Assembly: GCA_963663235.2 (NCBI GenBank)
Contig: CAXXNO010000004.1
Span: 608,001 to 672,000 of the forward strand
Source of the DNA: Dehalococcoidia bacterium
GTDB lineage: Bacteria; Chloroflexota; Dehalococcoidia; Bin125
Reading direction: 5' to 3'
Length of the DNA: 64,000 nucleotides
In this document: positions 47,069-63,350 of the stretch, piece after piece
Layout: every line of letters begins with the position of its first letter
Numbering within the stretch: the stretch's first letter is position 1
Notes under the pieces: generated by a model
The model's database searches: none
What the model saw: the letters and a program-made list of their open reading frames with translations, nothing else
Told to the model about the DNA's origin: nothing
Position numbers and translations under genes: made by a program

Positions 47069-47158
47069 TGGCGGAGAGGGTGGGATTCGAACCCACGAGG
47101 GGCTTGCGCCCCCACACGCTTTCCAGGCGTGCCTGTTCAGCCACTCCAGCACCTCTCC
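47069..47158 (-). tRNA. tRNA-Ser(GGA)
   Basis: GGAGAGG acceptor stem, anticodon arm CACGC-CTGGAAA-GCGTG, long variable arm, GGTTCGAATCC, encoded GCCA end. Confidence 0.95.
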
Positions 47159-47186: not shown

Positions 47187-47277
47187 TGGCGGAGAGGGTG
47201 GGATTCGAACCCACGAGGGCCTTGTGAGCCCTACCGATTTTCGAGATCGGCACCTTCAACCACTCGGACACCTCTCC
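47187..47277 (-). tRNA. tRNA-Ser(CGA)
   Basis: GGAGAGG acceptor stem, anticodon arm CCGAT-CTCGAAA-ATCGG, long variable arm, encoded GCCA. Extended -10 TGaTATACT at 47298-47290. Confidence 0.95.
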
Positions 47278-51547: not shown

Positions 51548-52492
51548 TTGGCTCGGTTTCTACCACCAAGCCTCACCGAGCTTCCGAACCCGCAGACCGA
51601 TCTGCCCCGCATTGCCAAGGACCGCGGTCTGACCGCAAGTATCGACGAAGCCGTACGACAAGTTCCGACTGCTCACCAGCTATGGCTACGTGACGCCCGC
51701 GAAATGAACCTTCCTTCAGACAGCGTTCATCTGGTCGTCACGTCACCCCCCTACTGGACCCTCAAGAAGTATCGAGACTGCGATGGCCAGCTCGGGGCCA
51801 TCGCCGACTATGAAGGCTTCCTATCGCAGTTAGACGCGATTTGGAGTCGGTGCTTTGATGCCCTCGTGCCGGGGGGGCGGCTAATCTGCGTCGTCGGAGA
51901 TGTTTGTTTATCGAGGAGAAAGAACGCTGGCAGGCACGTAGTAGTTCCTCTGCATTCATCGATCCAAGAGCGCTGCCGCCACATCGGTTACGACAATTTG
52001 GCTCCGATCGTCTGGCACAAAATCTCAAACGCTGCGTACGAGGTTGAGAACGGTTCCACGTTCCTGGGTAAGCCGTATGAGCCAAACGCAGTGATAAAGA
52101 ACGATATCGAGTTCATCCTGATGGAGCGGAAGCCAGGTTCTTATCGCAGCCCGACCTTGGAAGCCCGGATCTTAAGCTTGATATCTGTAGAAAATCATCA
52201 CAAGTGGTTCAGACAAATCTGGTCTGGCCTGACAGGCGCATCGACTCACCAGCATCCCGCGCCATTTCCTCTTGAGCTGGCGGAGCGGCTGGTTAGGATG
52301 TTTAGTTTCGTCGGTGATACTGTCCTCGACCCGTTCCTCGGCACCGCGACATCGAGTTTGGCTGCCGCCCGGTGGGGACGAAACAGCATTGGCTTCGAAG
52401 TAGACCCGCACTACTTTGAACTCGGCCATCAAAGAATGGCCCGAGAGACGCGGAATCTCTTCGGCAATGCAGCAATTGACGCGCTCCCGTAG
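51548..52492 (+). CDS. Type II DNA methyltransferase (beta class, SPPY, likely m4C)
   Basis: VHLVVTSPPYW, I.W.K, HPAPFP.EL..RLV.MFS..GD.VLDPFLGT.TS. Visibly lower GC than the flanks. Frame open upstream to ATA 51488 behind GGAGGAG. Confidence 0.9.
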   Translation: MARFLPPSLTELPNPQTDLPRIAKDRGLTASIDEAVRQVPTAHQLWLRDAREMNLPSDSVHLVVTSPPYWTLKKYRDCDGQLGAIADYEGFLSQLDAIWSRCFDALVPGGRLICVVGDVCLSRRKNAGRHVVVPLHSSIQERCRHIGYDNLAPIVWHKISNAAYEVENGSTFLGKPYEPNAVIKNDIEFILMERKPGSYRSPTLEARILSLISVENHHKWFRQIWSGLTGASTHQHPAPFPLELAERLVRMFSFVGDTVLDPFLGTATSSLAAARWGRNSIGFEVDPHYFELGHQRMARETRNLFGNAAIDALP

Positions 52493-52500
52493 CGAGTCCC

Positions 52501-53229
52501 ATGCCGGCCGCGACACTTGAGAAGCGGTTGTCCAAGGCAGTAAAGACGTTCTGGACGACTCGCAACCGCCAGATTGACGCGCAAGAAAAAAGACGCGGTA
52601 ACGGGGACCAAGGGTCCAGGGGCGCTGTCACTGGAGGTGCTCAACTCGACGGAGTGGCTGATCTCCTGAGTGAGCTTCTGGTTGAGAGCGGCATCGATCC
52701 CGCGACGATTCATAGGAAAAAGGACGTCGCTCTACCCGGATTCTTCCGCCCTTCAAAGGGGTGGGATCTGGTTGTTGTAATCGATGGCGTTCTTCTCGCG
52801 TCGATTGAGGTCAAGTCACAGGTCGGATCGTTTGGAAACAACTACAACAATCGGACGGAAGAAGCGCTCGGGAGCTCCACTGACCTGCGGACGGCTTATC
52901 GCGAAGGCGCTTTCGCCCCCTCGGCGAGGCCCTGGCTCGGCTACCTCATGTTGCTTGAGGAGGCTCCGAAATCGCTGGCGCCAGTTCGAGTTCAAGAGCC
53001 ACATTTCCCGGTGCGGGAAGAGTTTCGAGGAGCCTCTTACGCGAGGAGGTACGAACTCTTCTGTCGGAAGCTCGTGCGAGAACGCCTCTATGACGCCGCG
53101 TGCTTCATTCTCTCCGATCAAGTCGGAGGATCAAATGGTAAGTACCGCGAGCCCTCTTCCGAACTAGGCTTCCGGAACTTTGTTACCTCTTTAACCGCAC
53201 GGGCAATCACCCACCTAGGCTCGCCGTAA
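52501..53229 (+). CDS. XhoI/PaeR7I family type II restriction endonuclease
   Basis: R..VTGG..LDG, LPGFFRP.K.WD.V, IEVKSQ.GSFGNN.NNR.EEA.G...D...A.REG, P.LGY...LE, Y..RY...C.KL..E.LY. Confidence 0.85.
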   Translation: MPAATLEKRLSKAVKTFWTTRNRQIDAQEKRRGNGDQGSRGAVTGGAQLDGVADLLSELLVESGIDPATIHRKKDVALPGFFRPSKGWDLVVVIDGVLLASIEVKSQVGSFGNNYNNRTEEALGSSTDLRTAYREGAFAPSARPWLGYLMLLEEAPKSLAPVRVQEPHFPVREEFRGASYARRYELFCRKLVRERLYDAACFILSDQVGGSNGKYREPSSELGFRNFVTSLTARAITHLGSP

Positions 53230-53295: not shown

Positions 53296-54594
53296 CTACT
53301 TCACCCCCACCGCCGACTCCACCTGCGGGATCGCCTGGAACCCGGTCGGCAGCGCCAGCACCGTCGCCGGCGCGCCGGTTTGCCGCTCCATCTCCGACGC
53401 CAGCTCCGCCACCGTCGCCGACACGTCCTCGCTCTTCCGCAAGTGCGCCGCCTTCGTCGTCGCCTCGTCCAGCGTCGAGTAGAGGTATACCTCCGCCTTC
53501 AACTGCGCCATCGCCTGGCACTGGATCCCCCACTGGTCGATGCGGTGGAAGTCCGGCTCCAGCAGCAGGGCAATCAGCGCCTCGGGACTCTCCCGCGATG
53601 CCAGGAACTCGGCGTAGTCTTCGTTCCCGACCCCTTCCCGGCACTCCGACGCCAGCACGATCGCCCCGCCCCGCCGCACCGCCCGCGCCGCCGCCGCCAT
53701 CCCCTTGATCGACTGGTACACGTTCAGGTCGGCCGGGTAGCCCCCGTTCGTCGTCACCACGATGTCGTACTCGTGCGGCACCGGCCGCAGCGCCGCCCGG
53801 TCCACCTCGGCCATCGCCGCGTCGTGCGCCGCCGCCAGCTCGCCGCAGAAGAAGCCCGTCACCCGACGGTCGGCGCTCAGCGTCACGTTGCACAGGAACG
53901 TCGGCTCCGACGCCAGCGCCACCGACCGCATCTCCTCGAAGATCGGGTTCCCTGCCCCCACGCAGAACGTCGCCTTGGGGTCCAGCAGGTTCGCCGCCGT
54001 GTGGTTGCGCATGATGTTGTGCGCCGCTGCGATGCCGGGCAGCACCCCTTTGCCGCCGCCGCTGTAGCCGGCGAAGATGTGCGGCTCCACGAACCCCGTC
54101 ACGATGCGCACGCTGGCCCGCATGTAGTGCGAGTTCAGGTAGATGCCGCCCCGGCGCTCTCCCGGGTAGCGCTGCAGGAACGTGAGCGAATCGGGATCCT
54201 GTGAGTCGTGCACCGCGACTCGGTAGTCCCGCACGATCTCCGGCCCCAGCAATCGCTCCAACTCGGGCCGCGACATCTGCCGGTGCAGCCCCGTCCCCAC
54301 GACGAGCGTGATCCGCTCCCGCGGCACGCCTCGACCCTCCACCACCCGCAGCAGCTCCGGCGCCGTCAGGCGGTTCGGCGCCGGCCGGGTGAGGTCGCTG
54401 AACACGATCGCGACGTGGTCGTCCGGCCCCACCAACTCGGCCAGCGGCGGCGACCCGATCGGCCCCGCCAGCGCCTCCCGCAGCGCCGCCGGCGGGGCCG
54501 CCAGCGGCGCCACGTCCTTCGGCATGATGACGTCCGTCTGCGCCGGCAGATCGACGTCCAGCCCGTTCTCGCCGTAGGACAGGTGCACCTTCAT
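53296..54594 (-). CDS. larA: Nickel-pincer lactate racemase family (LarA-like)
   Basis: L.YG, AL..PIG..PL, SD.TRP.P, GTGLHR, HD, G.VEPH.FAG.SGG.K..LPG, GYP.D.N.YQ..K, EC.EG.G. Confidence 0.9.
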   Translation of the reverse strand: MKVHLSYGENGLDVDLPAQTDVIMPKDVAPLAAPPAALREALAGPIGSPPLAELVGPDDHVAIVFSDLTRPAPNRLTAPELLRVVEGRGVPRERITLVVGTGLHRQMSRPELERLLGPEIVRDYRVAVHDSQDPDSLTFLQRYPGERRGGIYLNSHYMRASVRIVTGFVEPHIFAGYSGGGKGVLPGIAAAHNIMRNHTAANLLDPKATFCVGAGNPIFEEMRSVALASEPTFLCNVTLSADRRVTGFFCGELAAAHDAAMAEVDRAALRPVPHEYDIVVTTNGGYPADLNVYQSIKGMAAAARAVRRGGAIVLASECREGVGNEDYAEFLASRESPEALIALLLEPDFHRIDQWGIQCQAMAQLKAEVYLYSTLDEATTKAAHLRKSEDVSATVAELASEMERQTGAPATVLALPTGFQAIPQVESAVGVK

Positions 54595-54678: not shown

Positions 54679-54843
54679 ATGGCCGGCGAACCGTTCGACG
54701 ACCAAACCCGCAGCGAGCGCCGCGCCGACAAGCGACGCAACAAGCGCCGCGCCCTCCAGATGCACGGCGCTTCCCTCCGCCGCATCTACCCCAACGCCGT
54801 CCTCAAGCGCCTCCGCCGAGCCAAGCGCCCACGCTCCCGCTAG
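54679..54843 (+). CDS. Small very basic hypothetical protein (54 aa)
   Basis: TACACT 7 nt before ATG. MAGEPFDDQTRSERRADKRRNKRRALQMHGASLRRIYPNAVLKRLRRAKRPRSR. Stop overlaps the convergent OsmC stop (CTAG). Confidence 0.6.
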   Translation: MAGEPFDDQTRSERRADKRRNKRRALQMHGASLRRIYPNAVLKRLRRAKRPRSR

Positions 54844-55313
54844 TGCGTCCTAATCTCCGCCGACGACGTGATCCGGATCGCCTCCTTTACGCTCTCGTGC
54901 GCCGGGCACCCCCGCGCATGCACCTCCACCGCCCGCTGCGCCGCCTCCCGCGTCCCCGCGCTGATGTCGATGTGGTAGCTCACGTGGATCGCGGTGATCC
55001 GGATCGGCGCGCCCTTGCCCGCCGGCCCCTCGATCGTCCCCTCCACGTCGGCCGTGTAGGTGTCCGGGTCGAACTCAACGTCGCGTACTCGCAGCGCACG
55101 GGCGAGCGTCCCGTACATTCACCCCGCCACCGCCGCGACGATGTGGTCCAGCGTCGCCGCTACCGGCGGACCCTCGGGCGCACCGTAGTACTCGCGTAGC
55201 GCGCCCTGCACCCCGTACGGCACCGGCTCCGGCACGTCGCCCAGGTAGGCGTTGCGCACGCCGTCCTTGAGCACCAGCCGCGACTTGGACATGTAGGTGA
55301 ACGTGTCCGCCAT
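54840..55313 (-). CDS. OsmC-like protein with in-frame UGA at the catalytic Cys position (predicted selenoprotein, 157 aa)
   Basis: ORFs 55119..55469 and 54840..55118 are in the same frame, joined by one TGA (55121-55119): LDHIVAAVAG-[TGA]-MYGTL...V.G.IE...IT.I.V.Y.I...H..GCP...S. RBS GAGAGGAG 7 nt before ATG 55313. Confidence 0.8.
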
Positions 55314-55315
55314 GA

Positions 55316-56380
55316 TCATGCTCCTCTCTCGCCCTGCTGAGCCCGCGCGTAGCTGGGGTCCTGCTGGCTCCGCTGCCCCCGTGTCCACTCCGGCGGGATG
55401 GGATACTCCCCGCTGATCGGGTCGACCCGGCTCCAGTCGTAGACGATCACCCGGTCCCCGATCCGCCACGCCTCCCCGTCCCGACGCTCCATCCGGTCCA
55501 GGTGCCGGCAGCCCACCACCTGCTCCGTCCGCCCGCTCGTCCGCGACGGCATCCGGTGATAGGCCACGCAGTACGCCTCGCTGTAGCCCACGTCGCCCTG
55601 CACTTCCACCAGCACCTGCCCGATGTAGTGCATCGTGCCCAGCATCGTGGGCAGTCCCCCGAACGCGTACTCGATGAAGCCGTCGCGGTCGCCTTGGTAC
55701 ATGCCGTGGTCGTCGGTCGCGTTGGCGTGGTAGCAGGACCGCGCCAGCTCTCTGTCCAGCCGGTCGACGGCGCGACAGTAGCGCTGCGCCACCTCAGCAA
55801 TCGCTTGCTTGTCCAGCGCCTCCTGCAGGCGGCCCTCCAGCGTGTCGGGTGGCGACCAGTCGGCGCGAAAGGCGGGCCGCTTGTACACGGCGTCCTGCCG
55901 GTCTCGCCGTCCCGTCACGTACTTCCCGTGGAAGTCCCACTGCCGCCCAACCGGCGCGATGGTGCTCCACTCCCACACCGTCCGCCGCTGCGCGATCTTC
56001 CACTCCCCCGCTCGGCGCTCCAGGCGGTCGATCCACCGCACCCCGGCCACGCCATCCTCGTCCTCGCCACTCTCGGTTACCGCCCGCTGGTACGCGGTCA
56101 CCTGCGCCTCGCTCTGCGCCCTGTCGCCGTCCAGGTCGATCAGCACGTTGGTGATGGTGTGCATGCCCAGGCTGGTCGGGGCCAGCGCCGCTTGCAGCCA
56201 GGGCACGAACCGCTCGACCGGCCCGTTGAACGCGCCGTGCTCCAGCTTCGCGCCGCCGTGGAAGCAGGACCGCGCCAGCTCCCAGTCGAAGCGATCCACG
56301 CCGCGGGCGAAGCGCGCGAGCACGTCGGTGATCGCTTGCTTGTCCAGCAGCGCCCGCGCCTGCCGCTCGTCGATCGGCAC
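55316..56380 (-). CDS. Tandem double SnoaL/NTF2-like domain protein
   Basis: Two repeats of LD..AI.....R..R..DR.D..L.RSC.H..A..HG...H......V.GD.A.SE....A...R..DR.ERR.G.W.I..R. Confidence 0.88.
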   Translation of the reverse strand: MPIDERQARALLDKQAITDVLARFARGVDRFDWELARSCFHGGAKLEHGAFNGPVERFVPWLQAALAPTSLGMHTITNVLIDLDGDRAQSEAQVTAYQRAVTESGEDEDGVAGVRWIDRLERRAGEWKIAQRRTVWEWSTIAPVGRQWDFHGKYVTGRRDRQDAVYKRPAFRADWSPPDTLEGRLQEALDKQAIAEVAQRYCRAVDRLDRELARSCYHANATDDHGMYQGDRDGFIEYAFGGLPTMLGTMHYIGQVLVEVQGDVGYSEAYCVAYHRMPSRTSGRTEQVVGCRHLDRMERRDGEAWRIGDRVIVYDWSRVDPISGEYPIPPEWTRGQRSQQDPSYARAQQGERGA

Positions 56381-56404: not shown

Positions 56405-57466
56405 CTAACGGTCCGCGCCGGACCGTGCGTAGGCCAGGTCGTCCTTGTTGCGCTGTCCCCGCATCCACTCGGGGGACAGTTCCAGTTCCTGGCTGATCGG
56501 GTCGATCCGGCTCCACTCGTACGCCACCATCCGGTCCCCGAGCTTCCACTCCGCGCCGTCGCGACGCTCGAAGCGGTCCACGTACCGGCAGGCCACCAAC
56601 TGCTCGGTCTTTCCCGACTTCCGCGACGGCATCCGGTGGTAGGCCACGCAGTATGCCTCGCTGTAGGCTACGTCGCCCTGCACGTCCACCAACCGATTGC
56701 CGATGTAGTGCATGGTGCCCAACATCGTCGTCAGGCCGTCCCCGGCGTGCTGCACGAAGCCGTCTCGGTCGCCCTGGTAGGTGCCGTGGTCGTCGGTGGC
56801 GTCTGGGTGGTAGCAGGAGCGCACCAGCTCCATGTCGATCCGGTCCACGCCGCGGCAGTAACGCTGGACCACCTCGGCGATGGCTTTTTTGTCCAGCAGC
56901 TCCTGCAGCCGTCCCTCGATCGTGGTCGGGGGCGCCCAGTCCGATGCGAAGCGCGGCCGATCGTATACCGGGTCCTGCTTGTCCCGACGCCCCTTCCGGT
57001 AGTTCTCGTTGAAGTTCCACTGCCGCCCCACCGGCGTCGCGGTGCTCCACTCCCACACCACCCGCCGATGCCCGATCCGCCACGTCCCCTCCCGCCGCTC
57101 GAACCGGTCGATCCACCGCGCCCCCACCACAAAGTCCCGGTCCGGCTCCCCTTCGCCCTTGGGCGGCAGCCGGTGATAGGCGGTGACGTACGTCTCGCTC
57201 TGCGCCCTGTCGCCGTCCAGGTCGATCAGCGGGTTCGTGATGAGGTGCTGCGAGAGCGTCATCTTCCCTAGCTCCTCGCGCACCCAGGGGATGAACGCCT
57301 CGATCGGGCCGGTGAACACGCCGTGCTCGTCCATCGCCCCCTCGTGGAAGCAGGACCGCACCAGGTCCCAGTCGAAGCGATCGATCCCGCGCGCGTAGCG
57401 CGCGACCACCTCGTAGATCGCCTGCTTGTCCAGCAGCGCCTGCGCCCGCTCGGCGTCGATGCTCAT
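56405..57466 (-). CDS. Tandem double SnoaL/NTF2-like domain protein (paralog of neighbour)
   Basis: Same two-domain layout, colinear and highly similar to 55316..56380. GGGAGG RBS. Confidence 0.88.
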   Translation of the reverse strand: MSIDAERAQALLDKQAIYEVVARYARGIDRFDWDLVRSCFHEGAMDEHGVFTGPIEAFIPWVREELGKMTLSQHLITNPLIDLDGDRAQSETYVTAYHRLPPKGEGEPDRDFVVGARWIDRFERREGTWRIGHRRVVWEWSTATPVGRQWNFNENYRKGRRDKQDPVYDRPRFASDWAPPTTIEGRLQELLDKKAIAEVVQRYCRGVDRIDMELVRSCYHPDATDDHGTYQGDRDGFVQHAGDGLTTMLGTMHYIGNRLVDVQGDVAYSEAYCVAYHRMPSRKSGKTEQLVACRYVDRFERRDGAEWKLGDRMVAYEWSRIDPISQELELSPEWMRGQRNKDDLAYARSGADR

Positions 57467-60092: not shown

Positions 60093-61577
60093 CTAGTCCG
60101 GGCCGCCGCTCTCCGCGGGCTGCCAGCGCAGGACCGGCTTGCGCGCGGCCCTCGCTTCGTCCAGCCGGCCGATCGGCGCCGTGTGCGGGGCGCCGCGCAC
60201 CGTCTCCGGGTCCTGCACCGCCTCCTGGGCGATGGCCACCAGCGCCGCGGCGTAGCGCTCCAGGTCCTCCCGGGCTTCCGTTTCCGTCGGCTCGATCATC
60301 AACGCTTCCTCCACGATCAGCGGGAAATAGACCGTGGGCGGGTGCACGCCGTGGTCGATCAGCCGCTTCGCGATGTCGTACGTGTGCACGTCGGACTCCC
60401 GCCGCTGCCGCGACCCCGAGAACACCACCTCGTGCAGCACGGGGCGGTCGTAGGGAAGATCGTAGTGGTCGCGCAGCAGCGCGCGCAGGTAGTTGGCGTT
60501 GAGGTCCGCGTTCTCCGAGACGGCCCGCAACCCTTCGATCCCCAACGAGCGGATGTAGGCGTAGGCCCGGATCAACACGCCGATGCTGCCGTGGAACTGC
60601 TGCAGCCGGCCGATGCTCTGTGCGGGTCGCGTGAGCCGGAGCTGTCCGTCGCCTGCCTCTTCCACCACTGGGGTGGGCAGGTAGGGCGCCAGCCCCTCTG
60701 TCGCGCACACGGGTCCCGCCCCCGGCCCTCCGCCCCCGTGCGGCGTGCTGAACGTCTTGTGCAGGTTCAGATGCACCACGTCGAAGCCCAGGTCGCCGTA
60801 GCGGATCCGCCCCAGGATGGCGTTGAGGTTGGCCCCGTCGCCGTAGAGGTAGGCGCCGGCTTCGTGCACGCGCTGGGCGCACTCTTCGATGCCCTGCTCC
60901 CACAGGCCCAGGGTGTTGGGCAGCGTGAGCATCAGCGCCGCGACCGATCCGTCCAGCTCACCCGCCAGCGCCGCCGCGTCCATGGAGCCGTCGCGCCCCG
61001 TGGGGATCTGGGTGACGCTGAACCCCGCCATCGCCGCCGTCGCCGGGTTCGTGCCGTGCGCGCTGTCGGGCACCAGCACCCGGCGACGCTCGCCCAGATC
61101 GCCGCGCTGCTCCAACGCTCGCTTGATCATCAGCACGCCGGCCAGCTCCCCTTGCGCGCCCGCCGCCGGCGCCAGGCTGACCGCGGCCAGTCCGGTGATG
61201 GCGCCCAGCGCTCCCTGCAGCTCCAGGAGGATGCGCAGCGTTCCGGCGGCGTCTTCCGGTGCCAGCGGGTGGGCATCGGCGAAGCCGGGCAGGCTGGCGA
61301 CGAGATCGTTGACCTTGGGGTTGTACTTCATGCTGCACGACCCCAACGGGTACGACCCCGTGTCGATGCCGAAGTTCCGCCGCGCCAGCGCGGTGTAGTA
61401 GCGCGCCAGCGCGCCCTGGCTCATCTCCGGCAGCCGCACCGACTCCCGCAGCAGCCGCGCTTCCGGCAGCGGCGTCTCCCTCCCCTCCCAGCGCGGCATA
61501 TCGACCGCTCGGCGGCCGGGCGCTCCCCGGTCGAAGGCCAGTCGCGCTCCGAAGTCCTCCCCCGGCGGTTCGATCAC
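60093..61577 (-). CDS. gcvPB: Glycine dehydrogenase (decarboxylating) subunit 2
   Basis: YPLGSCSMKYNP, PAAGAQGE, SAHGTNPA, HLNLHKTFSTPHGGGGPG, PPT.YFP, IEPTETE. Confidence 0.95.
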   Translation of the reverse strand: MIEPPGEDFGARLAFDRGAPGRRAVDMPRWEGRETPLPEARLLRESVRLPEMSQGALARYYTALARRNFGIDTGSYPLGSCSMKYNPKVNDLVASLPGFADAHPLAPEDAAGTLRILLELQGALGAITGLAAVSLAPAAGAQGELAGVLMIKRALEQRGDLGERRRVLVPDSAHGTNPATAAMAGFSVTQIPTGRDGSMDAAALAGELDGSVAALMLTLPNTLGLWEQGIEECAQRVHEAGAYLYGDGANLNAILGRIRYGDLGFDVVHLNLHKTFSTPHGGGGPGAGPVCATEGLAPYLPTPVVEEAGDGQLRLTRPAQSIGRLQQFHGSIGVLIRAYAYIRSLGIEGLRAVSENADLNANYLRALLRDHYDLPYDRPVLHEVVFSGSRQRRESDVHTYDIAKRLIDHGVHPPTVYFPLIVEEALMIEPTETEAREDLERYAAALVAIAQEAVQDPETVRGAPHTAPIGRLDEARAARKPVLRWQPAESGGPD

Positions 61578-62953
61578 CGCGACGCTCCGATCGTCCCCAG
61601 CGCCTCGACCAGCCCGTCGATGTGCTCGCGGGGGGTGGCTTCGGTGACGCAGAACAGGAGCGCGTCGCGCGCTTCCGGCTCGGGCCGCGCGGAGACGTCG
61701 AGCCCGCCTGTGATGCCGCGCTCCGCCAGGCTGCGGTGGAGGTCGGCCGCCGGCATCGGGCCGCGCACCAGGAACTCCTGGAACCACGGCCCGCGCTCCA
61801 TCACCCGGTAACCCGGCAGCGCCTCGATCCGCGCCGCCGCGTCGTGTGCCTTCTGGTAGCACAGCTCCGCCAGGTCGCGCAGCCCCTGCGGGCCCAGCGC
61901 TTGCAGGGTGATGGTGAACGCCAGCGCCAGCAGCGACTGCCCGGTGGAGAAGTTCGACGTCGCCCGCTCCCGCCGGATGAACTGCTCCCGCGCCTGCAGG
62001 GTCAGGACGTAGCCGGTGCGCGGGGCGCCTTCGCTTCCATCGGCGTGCCGCCGGCCGTGCAGCTCCTGGGTCCGTCCCACGATGCGTCCGGGCACCTGCC
62101 GCAGGAACGCCTGCCGGGCGGCGAAGAGCCCCAGCGACGGCCCGCCGAACCCCATCGGGCCCGCCAGGTCGCGCCCCTCGCCGGTGACGATGTCCGCTCC
62201 CGCGTCACCGGGAGCGCGCAGCAATCCCAACGACAGCGGCTCCGCCACCACGATGCACAGCGCGCCGGCGGCATGCGCGGCGGCGGCGATCGGCTCAAGG
62301 TCCCCGATCCCGCCCAGGTGGTCCGGTTGCTGCACTACCAGGGCGGCGTGCGCATCGCCCACCGCTTCCGCCGCCTTGATCGTGTCCACGCGGATCCCGG
62401 CCCCATACCCGTACGCCCGCACCACGTCGACCGTGTGCGGGTGCAGCGGTTCCAGAACTGCCACCGCGCTGCGCTTGCTGACTCGGGCGGCCAGCAGGCA
62501 CGCCTCGGCCGTGGCGCTGGCCGCGTCGTAGAGCCCGGTGTTGGAGACGTCCAGGCCCGTCAGCTCGCAGACGACTGATTGATACTCGAAGGCGCTTTGC
62601 AGCGTGCCCTGGCTGATCTCCGGCTGGTACGGCGTGTACGCGGTGACGAATTCCGACTGCGATGTCAGCGCCGCCGTGATCGTCGGCACGCCGCGCCGGT
62701 AGGCGCCGGCCCCCAGGAAGCAGGGGCGATCCGCGCCCGTTCGGTTGAGCGCGGCGCGACTCTCCAGCAGCCGAAGCAGCTCCATCTCCGCTAACCGCTG
62801 CGGCAGCTCGATCGCCGGGTCGCGCAGGGCCGCCGGCAGGTCCTGAAACAGCGCCGCCATGTCGGGTAGGCCGATGCGCGCCAGCATCCGCGCCCGGTCA
62901 TCGTCGGTGTTGGGGATGTACGGCGTCGGCGCGCGGCCTCCGGAGTCGGCCAC
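61574..62953 (-). CDS. gcvPA: Glycine dehydrogenase (decarboxylating) subunit 1
   Basis: YIP.T..D...ML, FLGAG.Y, EF.TAYTPYQPEISQGTLQ, FGGP.LG, PGRIVG.T, LTLQAREQ.IRRE.ATSN. Confidence 0.95.
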   Translation of the reverse strand: MADSGGRAPTPYIPNTDDDRARMLARIGLPDMAALFQDLPAALRDPAIELPQRLAEMELLRLLESRAALNRTGADRPCFLGAGAYRRGVPTITAALTSQSEFVTAYTPYQPEISQGTLQSAFEYQSVVCELTGLDVSNTGLYDAASATAEACLLAARVSKRSAVAVLEPLHPHTVDVVRAYGYGAGIRVDTIKAAEAVGDAHAALVVQQPDHLGGIGDLEPIAAAAHAAGALCIVVAEPLSLGLLRAPGDAGADIVTGEGRDLAGPMGFGGPSLGLFAARQAFLRQVPGRIVGRTQELHGRRHADGSEGAPRTGYVLTLQAREQFIRRERATSNFSTGQSLLALAFTITLQALGPQGLRDLAELCYQKAHDAAARIEALPGYRVMERGPWFQEFLVRGPMPAADLHRSLAERGITGGLDVSARPEPEARDALLFCVTEATPREHIDGLVEALGTIGASR

Positions 62954-62955
62954 TG

Positions 62956-63339
62956 TTACTCGCCCGCGGTCTCGCTTCGATAGGCGGCGGCGTCCAGGAG
63001 ATCGCCCACTTCGCCGCTGTCCGCCAATCGCACCTTGATCAGCCACCCCGCATCATACGGCGACTGATTCACGATCTCCGGCGCCTCCGCGGCGGCGGCG
63101 TTTCGCTCGCTGATCTCGCCGCTCACGGGCGCGAACAGGTCCGAGACGGCCTTGACCGATTCGATGACGCCGAAGCTCTCGCCTCTGACGATGGTGCTGC
63201 CCGGCTCCGGCAGCTCCACATAGACGATGTCGCCCAGCTGGTCCTGCGCGTAGTCCGTAATGCCGATGGTCCCTTCATCCCCTTCGATCCGGATCCATTC
63301 GTGGTTGGACGTATAGAACAGTGTGTCGGGGATCTCCAT
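62956..63339 (-). CDS. gcvH: Glycine cleavage system H protein
   Basis: Y...HEW, GITDYAQ.QLGD.VYVELP, lipoyl site ESVKAVSD, N..PY..GW. Confidence 0.96.
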   Translation of the reverse strand: MEIPDTLFYTSNHEWIRIEGDEGTIGITDYAQDQLGDIVYVELPEPGSTIVRGESFGVIESVKAVSDLFAPVSGEISERNAAAAEAPEIVNQSPYDAGWLIKVRLADSGEVGDLLDAAAYRSETAGE

Positions 63340-63350
63340 GGCGCGCTGTC

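What the first reader, a model, noticed from the sequence alone, without database searches (positions are those of the whole stretch)
54840..55313. Hidden selenoprotein: OsmC-like gene read through UGA at the active site
Seen: two abutting same-frame ORFs joined by one TGA, in the context AAVAG-[UGA]-MYGT. The second half has no RBS of its own and carries the GCP motif. The mRNA just 3' of the UGA can fold (GUACGGG/CCCGUGC, or GCUCGC/GCGAGU). Known: OsmC/Ohr proteins use a first Cys in an A..AGC..T helix and a second Cys in a CP motif, bacterial Sec insertion needs a hairpin immediately after UGA, and OsmC-like selenoproteins have been reported from metagenomes but are little characterised. 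Inference: a Sec/Cys redox enzyme that standard gene callers split or drop.
Basis: partly seen in the sequence, partly recalled or inferred. Interest (0 to 1): 0.85.

Follow-up and report, generated by a model that had tools for sequence, protein, structure and literature searches.

The report
Selenocysteine OsmC-like peroxidase gene, split by annotators
The "stop" codon in the middle of this small antioxidant-type gene is almost certainly read as selenocysteine at the enzyme's reactive site; it is a real gene that databases cut into two fragments, but selenium-containing OsmC-like proteins are an already known kind.

Summary
Observation confirmed. One minus-strand gene (window 55313..54840, 157 codons) has a single in-frame TGA (55121..55119) in the context VAAVAG-U-MYGTL.

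Read through, it is an OsmC/Ohr-fold protein. The TGA sits at the column of the peroxidatic Cys, and a GCP Cys lies 71 residues later.

Evidence for selenocysteine:
- The TGA is kept in all 46 homologous loci examined (Chloroflexota, Methylomirabilota, one Verrucomicrobiia).
- Both halves are under purifying selection.
- 51 of 65 full-length distant homologues have Cys at that column.
- The genome has selA, selB, a Sec-containing selD, tRNA-Sec, and at least six other TGA-interrupted redox genes.
- Four independent assemblies show the same TGA.

The weak point is the SECIS. Across the family, the 45 nt after the UGA are the most structured part of the gene. In this window's own clade the conserved hairpin (+15..+35) is marginal (-7.5 kcal/mol) and atypical.

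OsmC-like selenoproteins have been known since 2005. This subfamily fails the curated NCBIfam model (27.9 vs 95 bits) and is filed publicly as two fragments. This scan met the same family six times before on other DNA.

New hint: in sister genera the genome's only gcvH (lipoyl H-protein) is translationally coupled to this gene.

Verdict: real, interpretation supported, new member of a known kind.

The parts
54840..55313 (-). Whole gene: 157-codon OsmC-like selenoprotein (Sec65, Cys136) plus TAG stop. An alternative ATG at 55319 overlaps the upstream gene's TGA.
   Evidence: sequence, translation. Pfam OsmC PF02566 at 1.4e-11 spans residues 59-153 across the TGA. AF2 model has pLDDT 88.5; its top listed PDB hits are OsmC/Ohr/OsmC-like entries (59 with E<=0.001).
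55119..55121 (-). In-frame TGA read as selenocysteine (residue 65). It lies at the column of the peroxidatic Cys.
   Evidence: TGA at the same column in 46/46 loci. Cys in 51/65 full-length homologues. The column aligns to Cys59 of E. coli OsmC 1qwi (weak E 0.03). No variant in 4 assemblies.
55087..55107 (-). Candidate SECIS stem-loop: GCUCGC-N9-GCGAGU, +15..+35 from the U of UGA, with an 11-nt spacer after the UGA.
   Evidence: The stem is kept in the window, L048-L050 and L022 (no covariation, all pairs invariant or G-C to G-U). It uses the rare Arg codon CGA (7.4% of Arg codons genome-wide) in 5/5 loci. Energy is -7.5 kcal/mol, with only 4% ensemble probability in naked RNA.
55096..55116 (-). 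Competing hairpin GUACGGG-N7-CCCGUGC at +6..+26. It is specific to this window.
   Evidence: Energy -11.5 kcal/mol, 64% ensemble probability. Not formable in the closest relatives L048-L050. Too close to the UGA for the published bSECIS spacing of 16-37 nt (PMC13188914 Fig. 2 legend).
54906..54908 (-). TGC codon for Cys136 in the GCP motif, the presumed resolving Cys.
   Evidence: Nearly invariant in alignment A4. Aligns to GCP (Cys125) of E. coli OsmC.
55321..55325 (-). Shine-Dalgarno-like AGGAG, 7 nt before ATG 55313. It lies inside the end of the upstream SnoaL-like gene, whose stop TGA is at 55318..55316.
   Evidence: Read directly.

Best explanation
A single gene (55313..54840, minus strand) encodes a 157-residue protein of the OsmC/Ohr superfamily. 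Its UGA codon 65 is decoded as selenocysteine by SelB and tRNA-Sec.

Sec65 takes the place of the peroxidatic cysteine on the long central helix. Cys136 (GCP motif) is the resolving partner.

Inferred mechanism, by analogy with Ohr/OsmC:
- The selenolate attacks an (organic) hydroperoxide.
- The resulting selenenic acid condenses with Cys136 to a selenenyl-sulfide.
- A dithiol reduces it, most likely the dihydrolipoyl arm of a lipoylated protein such as the glycine-cleavage H-protein.

Shown: the gene structure, the conserved TGA, the Cys/Sec pairing, the fold and the Sec machinery. Inferred: actual Sec insertion, the peroxidase chemistry and the reductant.
For: 1. One TGA sits at the same column in 27/27 genome-contig loci and in all 20 relatives' genomes that have the gene (19 of 24 same-family genomes).

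2. The flanks are conserved. Omega is 0.08-0.25 for the N-half (13 of 14 pairs; one could not be computed) and 0.18-0.65 for the C-half (14 comparisons).

3. The gene is split in public protein sets. Most of the 101 hits are ~90-aa pieces starting MYGTL or pieces ending VAAVAG.

4. There is a Cys/Sec pair: 51 of 65 full-length homologues have Cys at the column, and 46 have both Cys.

5. The genome has selD (357.8 bits, itself with a TGA), selA (551.8 bits), selB (359.1 bits) and tRNA-Sec (70.9 bits; anticodon tca). At least six more TGA-interrupted genes fall in families with known selenoproteins: CMD x2, AhpC/TSA, rhodanese, FtrB-like, CC/Se-like.

6. OsmC fold: Pfam 1.4e-11; AF2 pLDDT 88.5 with 59 PDB matches at E<=0.001, the top listed being OsmC/Ohr/OsmC-like entries.

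7. The 15 codons after the UGA are the most structured of 23 windows along the gene, compared with synonymous-codon shuffles. Mean z is -1.42 with 88% of 41 loci negative; non-overlapping windows range from -0.69 to +0.52.

8. TGA is an ordinary stop here. The upstream gene ends in TGA, and 15 of 42 rows listed end in TGA.

9. In L066 the codon after the TGA is CTG, so no restart codon is there.

10. Reductant hint. gcvH overlaps or abuts the stop of this gene in 8 loci and lies within 1.2 kb in 2 more. It is the only strong GCV_H match in each of the 5 genomes checked. Lipoyl groups on proteins are the reported reductants of Ohr/OsmC (PMC5384416, passages).
Against: The SECIS of this particular gene is weak.
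- The region after the UGA is no more stable than synonymous shuffles in the window (z +0.78) or its nearest relatives L048-L050 (+0.70 to +1.14).
- The clade-conserved hairpin is only -7.5 kcal/mol, has no G in the first two loop positions as drawn, and has 4% ensemble probability.
- It shows no covariation.
- It differs from the tidy 6-8-bp stems with GGC/GGU/GUG/GGUC loops after the UGA of this genome's other candidate selenoprotein genes.

Sequence similarity to solved OsmC proteins is weak (profile E 0.03).

The catalytic Arg/Glu of Ohr/OsmC could not be placed.

The gcvH linkage is absent from the window itself (gcvH is 7.7 kb away) and from the non-Dehalococcoidia loci.
Confidence: 0.9

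Rival explanations
1. Genuinely split gene. Translation stops at UGA and restarts at the adjacent AUG, giving a 64-aa and a 92-aa polypeptide that assemble into an OsmC-like fold without a first Cys.
For: UGA-AUG adjacency occurs in the window and 45 of 46 loci. Gene callers annotate exactly these pieces. The window's own SECIS hairpin is marginal.
Against: The break falls exactly on the column where 51/65 homologues have the catalytic Cys. Met or Leu after that Cys is also usual in the Cys forms, so the AUG is a protein residue. L066 has CTG after the TGA. There is no canonical SD before the internal AUG. The Sec machinery and other selenoprotein genes are present. There is excess RNA structure right after the UGA across the family.
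Confidence: 0.04
2. UGA is read through or recoded as an ordinary amino acid (Trp, Cys or Arg by near-cognate tRNA, or an alternative genetic code), not as selenocysteine.
For: Three database proteins (P0004, P0007, P0108) carry W at the column, as if TGA had been translated as Trp.
Against: TGA terminates ordinary genes here, including 15 of 42 rows listed and the upstream gene. The genome is 68% G+C. A tRNA-Sec with anticodon tca and selA/B/D are present. The W forms are most simply pipeline translations (inference).
Confidence: 0.04
3. Pseudogene or sequencing/assembly error at 55119-55121.
For: None beyond the stop itself.
Against: The same TGA is in 46/46 loci from at least three phyla. 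Omega is well below 1 on both sides. Contigs of four runs from four studies carry it unchanged.
Confidence: 0.01

Closest known systems
'OsmC-like protein' selenoprotein family (Zhang, Fomenko & Gladyshev 2005, Sargasso Sea, PMC1088965: 3 sequences, COG1765, motif UxxT; listed as PF02566, UxxT in Table 1 of the 2026 review PMC13188914). Passages seen.
   Same: OsmC (PF02566) domain. A single Sec in the redox-active first-Cys region. Known only from computational prediction, never characterised biochemically.
   Different: The motif here is U-M-Y-G-T (UxxxT), not UxxT. The hosts are soil, groundwater and thermal-type Chloroflexota and Methylomirabilota rather than marine plankton. Whether the Sec column is homologous could not be checked, because no sequence of that family was at hand.
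NCBIfam NF041052 OsmC_like_Se, 'OsmC-related (seleno)protein'
   Same: Best NCBIfam hit of the read-through protein. Same superfamily.
   Different: It scores 27.9 bits against a cut-off of 95. The family member in G044 scores 24.6 bits. No member of this subfamily reaches the cut-off, so NCBI's pipeline cannot name it and leaves two fragments.
E. coli OsmC (PDB 1qwi/1nye) and Ohr (e.g. 1n2f, 6ebd): Cys-based, lipoyl-dependent organic hydroperoxide reductases
   Same: Same fold. Two redox residues on the central helix and in a C-P motif. Spacing is 71 residues versus about 60 (PMC5384416). A lipoyl-protein gene is a neighbour in sister genera.
   Different: Sec replaces the peroxidatic Cys. 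Sequence similarity is very low (11-18% identity in the fold matches; single-sequence PDB search finds nothing relevant). [quoted passage not shown] A distinctive conserved N-terminal segment (F-x-Y-I-S...EPV-x-YGVQG-x-L-R-x-YYG) is present.

Membership tests
Bacterial selenoprotein gene (SelB-dependent UGA decoding) | In-frame UGA conserved among orthologues, with conserved coding sequence on both sides | tested here: met
   46/46 loci have the TGA. Omega is 0.08-0.25 (N-half; 13 of 14 pairs computable) and 0.18-0.65 (C-half).
Bacterial selenoprotein gene (SelB-dependent UGA decoding) | Cys-containing homologues with Cys aligned to the UGA | tested here: met
   51 of 65 full-length homologues have Cys there. 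The rest are 3 W, 3 S, 3 gaps and 5 other.
Bacterial selenoprotein gene (SelB-dependent UGA decoding) | selA, selB, selD and tRNA-Sec in the same genome | tested here: met
   All four are above their curated cut-offs. ARAGORN calls tRNA-SeC with anticodon tca.
Bacterial selenoprotein gene (SelB-dependent UGA decoding) | bSECIS stem-loop after the UGA: 3-9 nt loop, 4-16 bp stem, G in the first two loop positions, 16-37 nt spacing, MFE <= -7.5 (PMC13188914 Fig. 2 legend) | tested here: inconclusive
   Family-wide there is an excess of structure exactly after the UGA, and other clades have 7-9 bp stems with GGC/GUC/GUU loops. In the window, hairpin +15..+35 meets the loop, stem, spacing and -7.5 criteria. 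It has CC at the first two loop positions, z is +0.78, and there is no covariation.
Bacterial selenoprotein gene (SelB-dependent UGA decoding) | Selenium actually incorporated | not testable with these tools
   Needs 75Se labelling or mass spectrometry.
OsmC/Ohr superfamily (Pfam PF02566) | Pfam model above gathering score | tested here: met
   45.1 bits against 27.5, residues 59-153, spanning the TGA.
OsmC/Ohr superfamily (Pfam PF02566) | OsmC fold | tested here: met
   AF2 pLDDT 88.5, pTM 0.82. 59 PDB matches at E<=0.001; the top listed are OsmC/Ohr/OsmC-like entries, TM 0.40-0.61.
OsmC/Ohr superfamily (Pfam PF02566) | Pair of redox Cys about 60 residues apart | tested here: met
   U65 and C136 are 71 residues apart. 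They align to Cys59 and Cys125 of 1qwi (criterion from PMC5384416).
Ohr or OsmC subfamily proper | Conserved catalytic Arg and Glu | tested here: inconclusive
   The invariant or near-invariant R20, D56 and R77 (157-aa numbering) are candidates. No coordinates or reliable alignment were available to place them.
NCBIfam NF041052 OsmC_like_Se | Score at or above the curated cut-off of 95 bits | tested here: not met
   27.9 bits.
Sargasso 'OsmC-like' selenoprotein (COG1765) | UxxT redox motif | tested here: not met
   The motif here is U-M-Y-G-T. COG1765 membership itself could not be tested.

The most novel reading that the evidence does not exclude
This subfamily is a dedicated lipoyl-H-protein-dependent selenoperoxidase. 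In sister Dehalococcoidia genera the genome's only gcvH is translationally coupled to the Sec-OsmC gene. On this reading, the glycine-cleavage H-protein doubles as the physiological reductant of a selenenyl-sulfide enzyme. That would be the first Sec enzyme wired to the lipoyl redox pool, and it is widespread in largely aerobic soil Chloroflexota and Methylomirabilota.
Probability: 0.3. Interest if true: 0.55.

Novelty: new member of a known kind. Interest (0 to 1): 0.3.

Why it matters
The practical point is annotation. A conserved redox enzyme of many Chloroflexota and Methylomirabilota genomes is stored in public databases as two meaningless fragments, and the curated NCBIfam model does not catch it. 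A dedicated model would repair those entries.

The biological point is that no Sec-containing OsmC has ever been characterised. This subfamily offers a clean Sec/Cys pair for asking what selenium buys an Ohr/OsmC-type peroxidase. The gcvH coupling in sister genera gives a concrete, testable reductant.

It does not change any concept of Sec decoding.

Tried and rejected
- Rfam scan of 54700-55450 at E<=10 gave only a chance gntR-DTE match (15.3 vs 63.6 bits). No SECIS family matched.
- Single-sequence PDB search found no OsmC. Only the profile did, and weakly.
- The first search for related loci attempt with a 6-sequence alignment failed for lack of a conserved stretch. It was redone with 3 sequences. 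One of that scan's two patterns required Cys or Trp at the column, yet no Cys form was recovered.
- Plain dinucleotide-shuffle folding of the 68 nt after the UGA was uninformative in this G+C-rich DNA (z 0.35). It was replaced by synonymous-codon shuffles.
- A first dN/dS attempt with ungapped blocks was spoiled by an indel and was redone on pairwise alignments.
- No gene neighbour is conserved across all loci. The SnoaL-like and LarA neighbours of the window recur only in the nearest genus (L048-L050; LarA also in L066).
- NF041052 was sought in the own genome and in five other genomes. No true member was found to compare Sec columns.
- Sequencing runs: no RNA holder was listed, so nothing can be said on expression.
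- Complex prediction was not used. An enzyme with its carrier is a poor case for it by the tool's own advice.
- Literature searches 'OsmC-like'+'selenoprotein' and 'OsmC'+'selenocysteine' from 2015 found no paper describing this subfamily. Supplementary tables, for example those of the groundwater MAG survey cited as ref. 66 in PMC13188914, could not be seen and may list it.

Full report
**What is in the sequence**

The finding lies on the minus strand. Reading 55322..54840 gives one open frame interrupted once, by TGA at 55121..55119. The context is ...ATLDHIVAAVAG-U-MYGTLARALRVRD..., and RGCPAHESVKEAI lies near the C-terminus.

The ORF lister shows the two abutting pieces, 55119..55469 and 54840..55118, the latter starting with the ATG directly after the TGA.

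Two ATGs could start the gene:
- ATG 55319 overlaps the TGA stop (55318..55316) of the upstream gene.
- ATG 55313 lies 7 nt after AGGAG (55325..55321) and gives MADTF..., like the homologues.

I take 55313, which gives 157 residues with Sec65 and Cys136.

**What the protein is**

The read-through protein matches Pfam OsmC (PF02566) at 1.4e-11 and 45.1 bits, above the 27.5-bit gathering score. The match covers residues 59-153, so it runs across the TGA.

An AlphaFold2 model built on 31 family sequences has pLDDT 88.5 and pTM 0.82. It has the beta-hairpin, long-helix and beta-sheet layout. Foldseek against the PDB gives 59 matches at E<=0.001, and the top listed are OsmC, Ohr or OsmC-like entries.

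A family profile aligns "ivaavagC" with "IGAAHAAC" (Cys59) and "gcPahesvk" with "GCPVSQVLK" (Cys125) of E. coli OsmC 1qwi. The E-value is only 0.03, and a single-sequence PDB search found nothing relevant.

So the TGA stands where Ohr/OsmC enzymes have the peroxidatic Cys. The GCP Cys stands where they have the resolving Cys. The roles of the two Cys are taken from PMC5384416 (passages).

**Is the TGA conserved?**

In the 5.8-billion-protein collection, most of the 101 hits are either ~90-aa proteins beginning MYGTL or pieces ending ...VAAVAG. Gene callers everywhere cut the family at this column.

A scan of GTDB species genomes gave 27 confirmed loci. They come from Dehalococcoidia, Anaerolineaceae, Chloroflexia, Ktedonobacterales, Methylomirabilota (Rokubacteria) and one Verrucomicrobiia. 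All 27 have TGA at the column.

Among 40 relatives' genomes, 20 have the gene:
- 19 of 24 in the same family.
- 1 of 16 in other families of the class.
- Every match carries one TGA.

Locus L066, which my motif search missed, also has it, followed by CTG rather than ATG. In total, 46 of 46 loci share the TGA. A few loci are the same genome fetched twice, for example L024/L063 and L027/L062.

Pairwise Nei-Gojobori estimates between the window and 14 loci give omega 0.08-0.25 for the N-terminal half (one pair not computable) and 0.18-0.65 for the C-terminal half. Both halves are under purifying selection.

Contigs of four sequencing runs from four studies cover 55119-55121 without a differing letter.

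**Cys/Sec pair**

An exhaustive HMMER search of 1.84 billion representatives gave 296 hits at E<=0.001.

I aligned 65 full-length (>=138 aa) homologues. Most of them are 30-45% identical to the query. The residue at the U column is:
- Cys in 51 (46 have both Cys).
- W in 3, probably TGA translated as Trp by a pipeline (inference).
- S in 3.
- A gap in 3.
- Another residue in 5.

Some of the odd rows are visibly frameshifted sequences.

**Sec machinery**

The window's genome is 2.75 Mb in 14 contigs, 68% G+C and 92% complete. It has:
- selD, 357.8 bits, itself with one in-frame TGA in ...AVCGG-U-GSKYG.
- selA, 551.8 bits.
- selB, 359.1 bits.
- tRNA-Sec, 70.9 bits, anticodon tca.

A coding-potential scan for TGA-joined frames plus family searches found six further candidates with the TGA at a redox motif:
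- Two CMD/AhpD-like genes (HGCAxU).
- An AhpC/TSA gene (WUPYC).
- A rhodanese gene (YUQGGIR).
- An FtrB-like gene (CHU).
- A weak CC/Se-family match.

TGA is also an ordinary stop in this genome and at the end of 15 of the 42 rows listed. An alternative genetic code is therefore excluded.

**The SECIS question**

This is the weakest part for this particular gene.

Across the family I compared each native sequence with versions in which synonymous codons were permuted within the gene. For the 45 nt after the UGA:
- Mean z is -1.45 over 41 non-redundant loci.
- 36 of the 41 are negative and 11 are below -2.
- 2 short and 3 duplicate loci were dropped.

In a scan of 23 windows along the gene, the window starting at codon +1 is the most structured (mean z -1.42, 88% negative). 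The overlapping +3 window gives -1.16. All other windows lie between -0.69 and +0.52. The loci are related, so these are not independent trials.

Other clades show neat hairpins:
- GCGCCCU-GGC-AGGGCGC in Rokubacteria.
- The same stem with a GUC loop in Ktedonobacteria.
- A 9-bp stem with a GUU loop in sister Dehalococcoidia genera.

They resemble the 6-8-bp stems with GGC/GGU/GUG/GGUC loops that follow the UGA in this genome's other candidate selenoprotein genes. They also fit the published bSECIS constraints (PMC13188914, Fig. 2 legend).

The window and its nearest relatives (L048-L050) are the exception, with z between +0.70 and +1.14.

The hairpin conserved in this clade is GCUCGC-N9-GCGAG(U/C) at +15..+35:
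- It is kept in the window, L048-L050 and L022.
- No pair covaries.
- It needs the rare Arg codon CGA, which is 7.4% of Arg codons genome-wide and is used in 5 of 5 loci.
- It is worth -7.5 kcal/mol, just at the published threshold.
- Its spacing and loop length are acceptable, but it has CC rather than G at the first two loop positions.
- In naked RNA it has 4% probability.

That low probability is because the window-specific hairpin +6..+26 (-11.5 kcal/mol, 64% probability) competes with it.

My inference is that a ribosome with the UGA in its A site covers the 5' arm of the +6 hairpin. That would free the +15 hairpin, whose 11-nt spacer is the same as I recall for the minimal E. coli fdhF SECIS. 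That figure is recalled and was not checked here.

**Context and likely function**

Upstream, and probably co-transcribed, are two paralogous genes that each encode two SnoaL_4 domains. A LarA-like gene lies downstream. This context recurs only in the nearest genus.

Clustering all flanking ORFs showed no neighbour shared by all loci. A GCV_H gene, with the ESVKA lipoyl-lysine motif, does recur:
- It is next to the gene in 10 loci of the window's family.
- In 8 of these its start overlaps or lies within 6 nt of the OsmC stop.
- In each of 5 genomes checked, it is the only strong GCV_H match.

In the window, gcvH sits 7.7 kb upstream, at the head of gcvPA and gcvPB.

Lipoyl groups on proteins are the reported reductants of Ohr/OsmC disulfides. 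H and L proteins have been proposed to support an OsmC-like enzyme of Trichomonas (PMC5384416, passages). Ohr structures with dihydrolipoamide are among the fold matches.

On this basis I propose a lipoyl-dependent hydroperoxide reductase with a Sec65/Cys136 redox pair. I give about 0.5-0.6 for the peroxidase chemistry and about 0.3 for GcvH as the reductant.

**Comparison with what is known**

"OsmC-like protein" is one of the selenoprotein families predicted in the Sargasso Sea data. That prediction rested on 3 sequences, with COG1765 assignment and motif UxxT (PMC1088965, tables and legends). The family is listed under "predicted with high confidence" in a 2026 review (PMC13188914, Table 1 passage).

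NCBIfam has a model for it, NF041052 OsmC_like_Se. The window's protein scores 27.9 bits against its 95-bit cut-off, and a Chloroflexia member scores 24.6. The motif here is UxxxT. It is therefore a different subfamily of the same superfamily, with Sec in the same functional region.

Two literature searches found nothing on this subfamily. Supplements were closed.

This scan has met the same family six times before in other genomes, with the same conclusion. I re-derived each point independently here.

**Verdict**

This is a real, misannotated selenoprotein gene of a known kind.

It is not surprising to a specialist. What is mildly new is the atypical, weak SECIS in this clade and the gcvH coupling in sister genera.

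Noticed in passing
window 62956-63340 (-), 61574-63046 (-), 60093-61862 (-): A gcvH - gcvPA - gcvPB operon lies 7.7 kb upstream of the Sec-OsmC gene. This gcvH is the genome's only GCV_H match. In sister genera gcvH is instead fused in an operon directly behind the Sec-OsmC gene.
   Followed up: partly
window 55316-56380 (-) and 56405-57466 (-): Two tandem paralogous genes, each encoding a protein of two SnoaL_4 domains (about 354 aa). The second one's stop overlaps the start region of the Sec-OsmC gene. The pairing recurs only in the nearest genus (L048-L050).
   Followed up: partly
window 52501-53229 (+): An ORF with a full-length match to restriction endonuclease XhoI (Pfam PF04555, 8.1e-82). 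A 314-aa ORF lies just upstream (51548-52492) that could be the methylase. Possible type II R-M system.
   Followed up: no
window 53296-54594 (-): LarA-like gene (Lar_N + LarA_C, nickel-pincer lactate racemase family) 245 nt downstream of the Sec-OsmC gene. Conserved there in L048-L050 and L066.
   Followed up: partly
G000 outside the window: C4:103806, C4:786926, C12:203049, C5:45281, C6:216247(-), C1:26680, C12:208722(-): Further in-frame TGA codons at redox motifs: selD, two CMD/AhpD-like (CxxU), AhpC/TSA (UPYC), rhodanese (UQGGIR), FtrB-like (CHU), and a possible CC/Se-family protein. Most are followed by 6-8-bp hairpins with GGC/GGU/GUG/GGUC loops. The selenoproteome of this Dehalococcoidia genome is at least 7-8 genes.
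   Followed up: partly
window 55298: One contig of run X17 (a related strain, about 80% of words shared) has 2 extra bases (GA) behind 55298, inside codon 5-6 of the gene. It is either an assembly error or a strain with a shifted N-terminus.
   Followed up: no
proteins P0004, P0007, P0108 (database entries): These public protein predictions of this family carry Trp at the Sec column, as if TGA had been translated with a code-4/25 table. P0011 has Arg and then runs out of frame, and P0005 has Ser.
   Followed up: no
window 47069-47158 and 47187-47277 (-): Two adjacent tRNA-Ser genes (anticodons gga and cga). They score 41-44 bits with the tRNA-Sec model, below its 47-bit threshold. They are not tRNA-Sec.
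   Followed up: yes
window 54681-54843 (+): A 54-codon, very basic ORF converges on the Sec-OsmC gene and overlaps its stop codon. It has no Pfam match. It is unclear whether it is a gene.
   Followed up: no
L037-L040, L042, L045 (Methylomirabilota/Verrucomicrobiia loci): A convergent ~978-aa ORF that recurs in these six loci lies directly downstream of the Sec-OsmC gene (placed in L039); its representative from L039, the only one run through Pfam, matches pyruvate-dehydrogenase-E1/transketolase-like domains. This is another link to lipoyl-dependent complexes, though a weak one.
   Followed up: no
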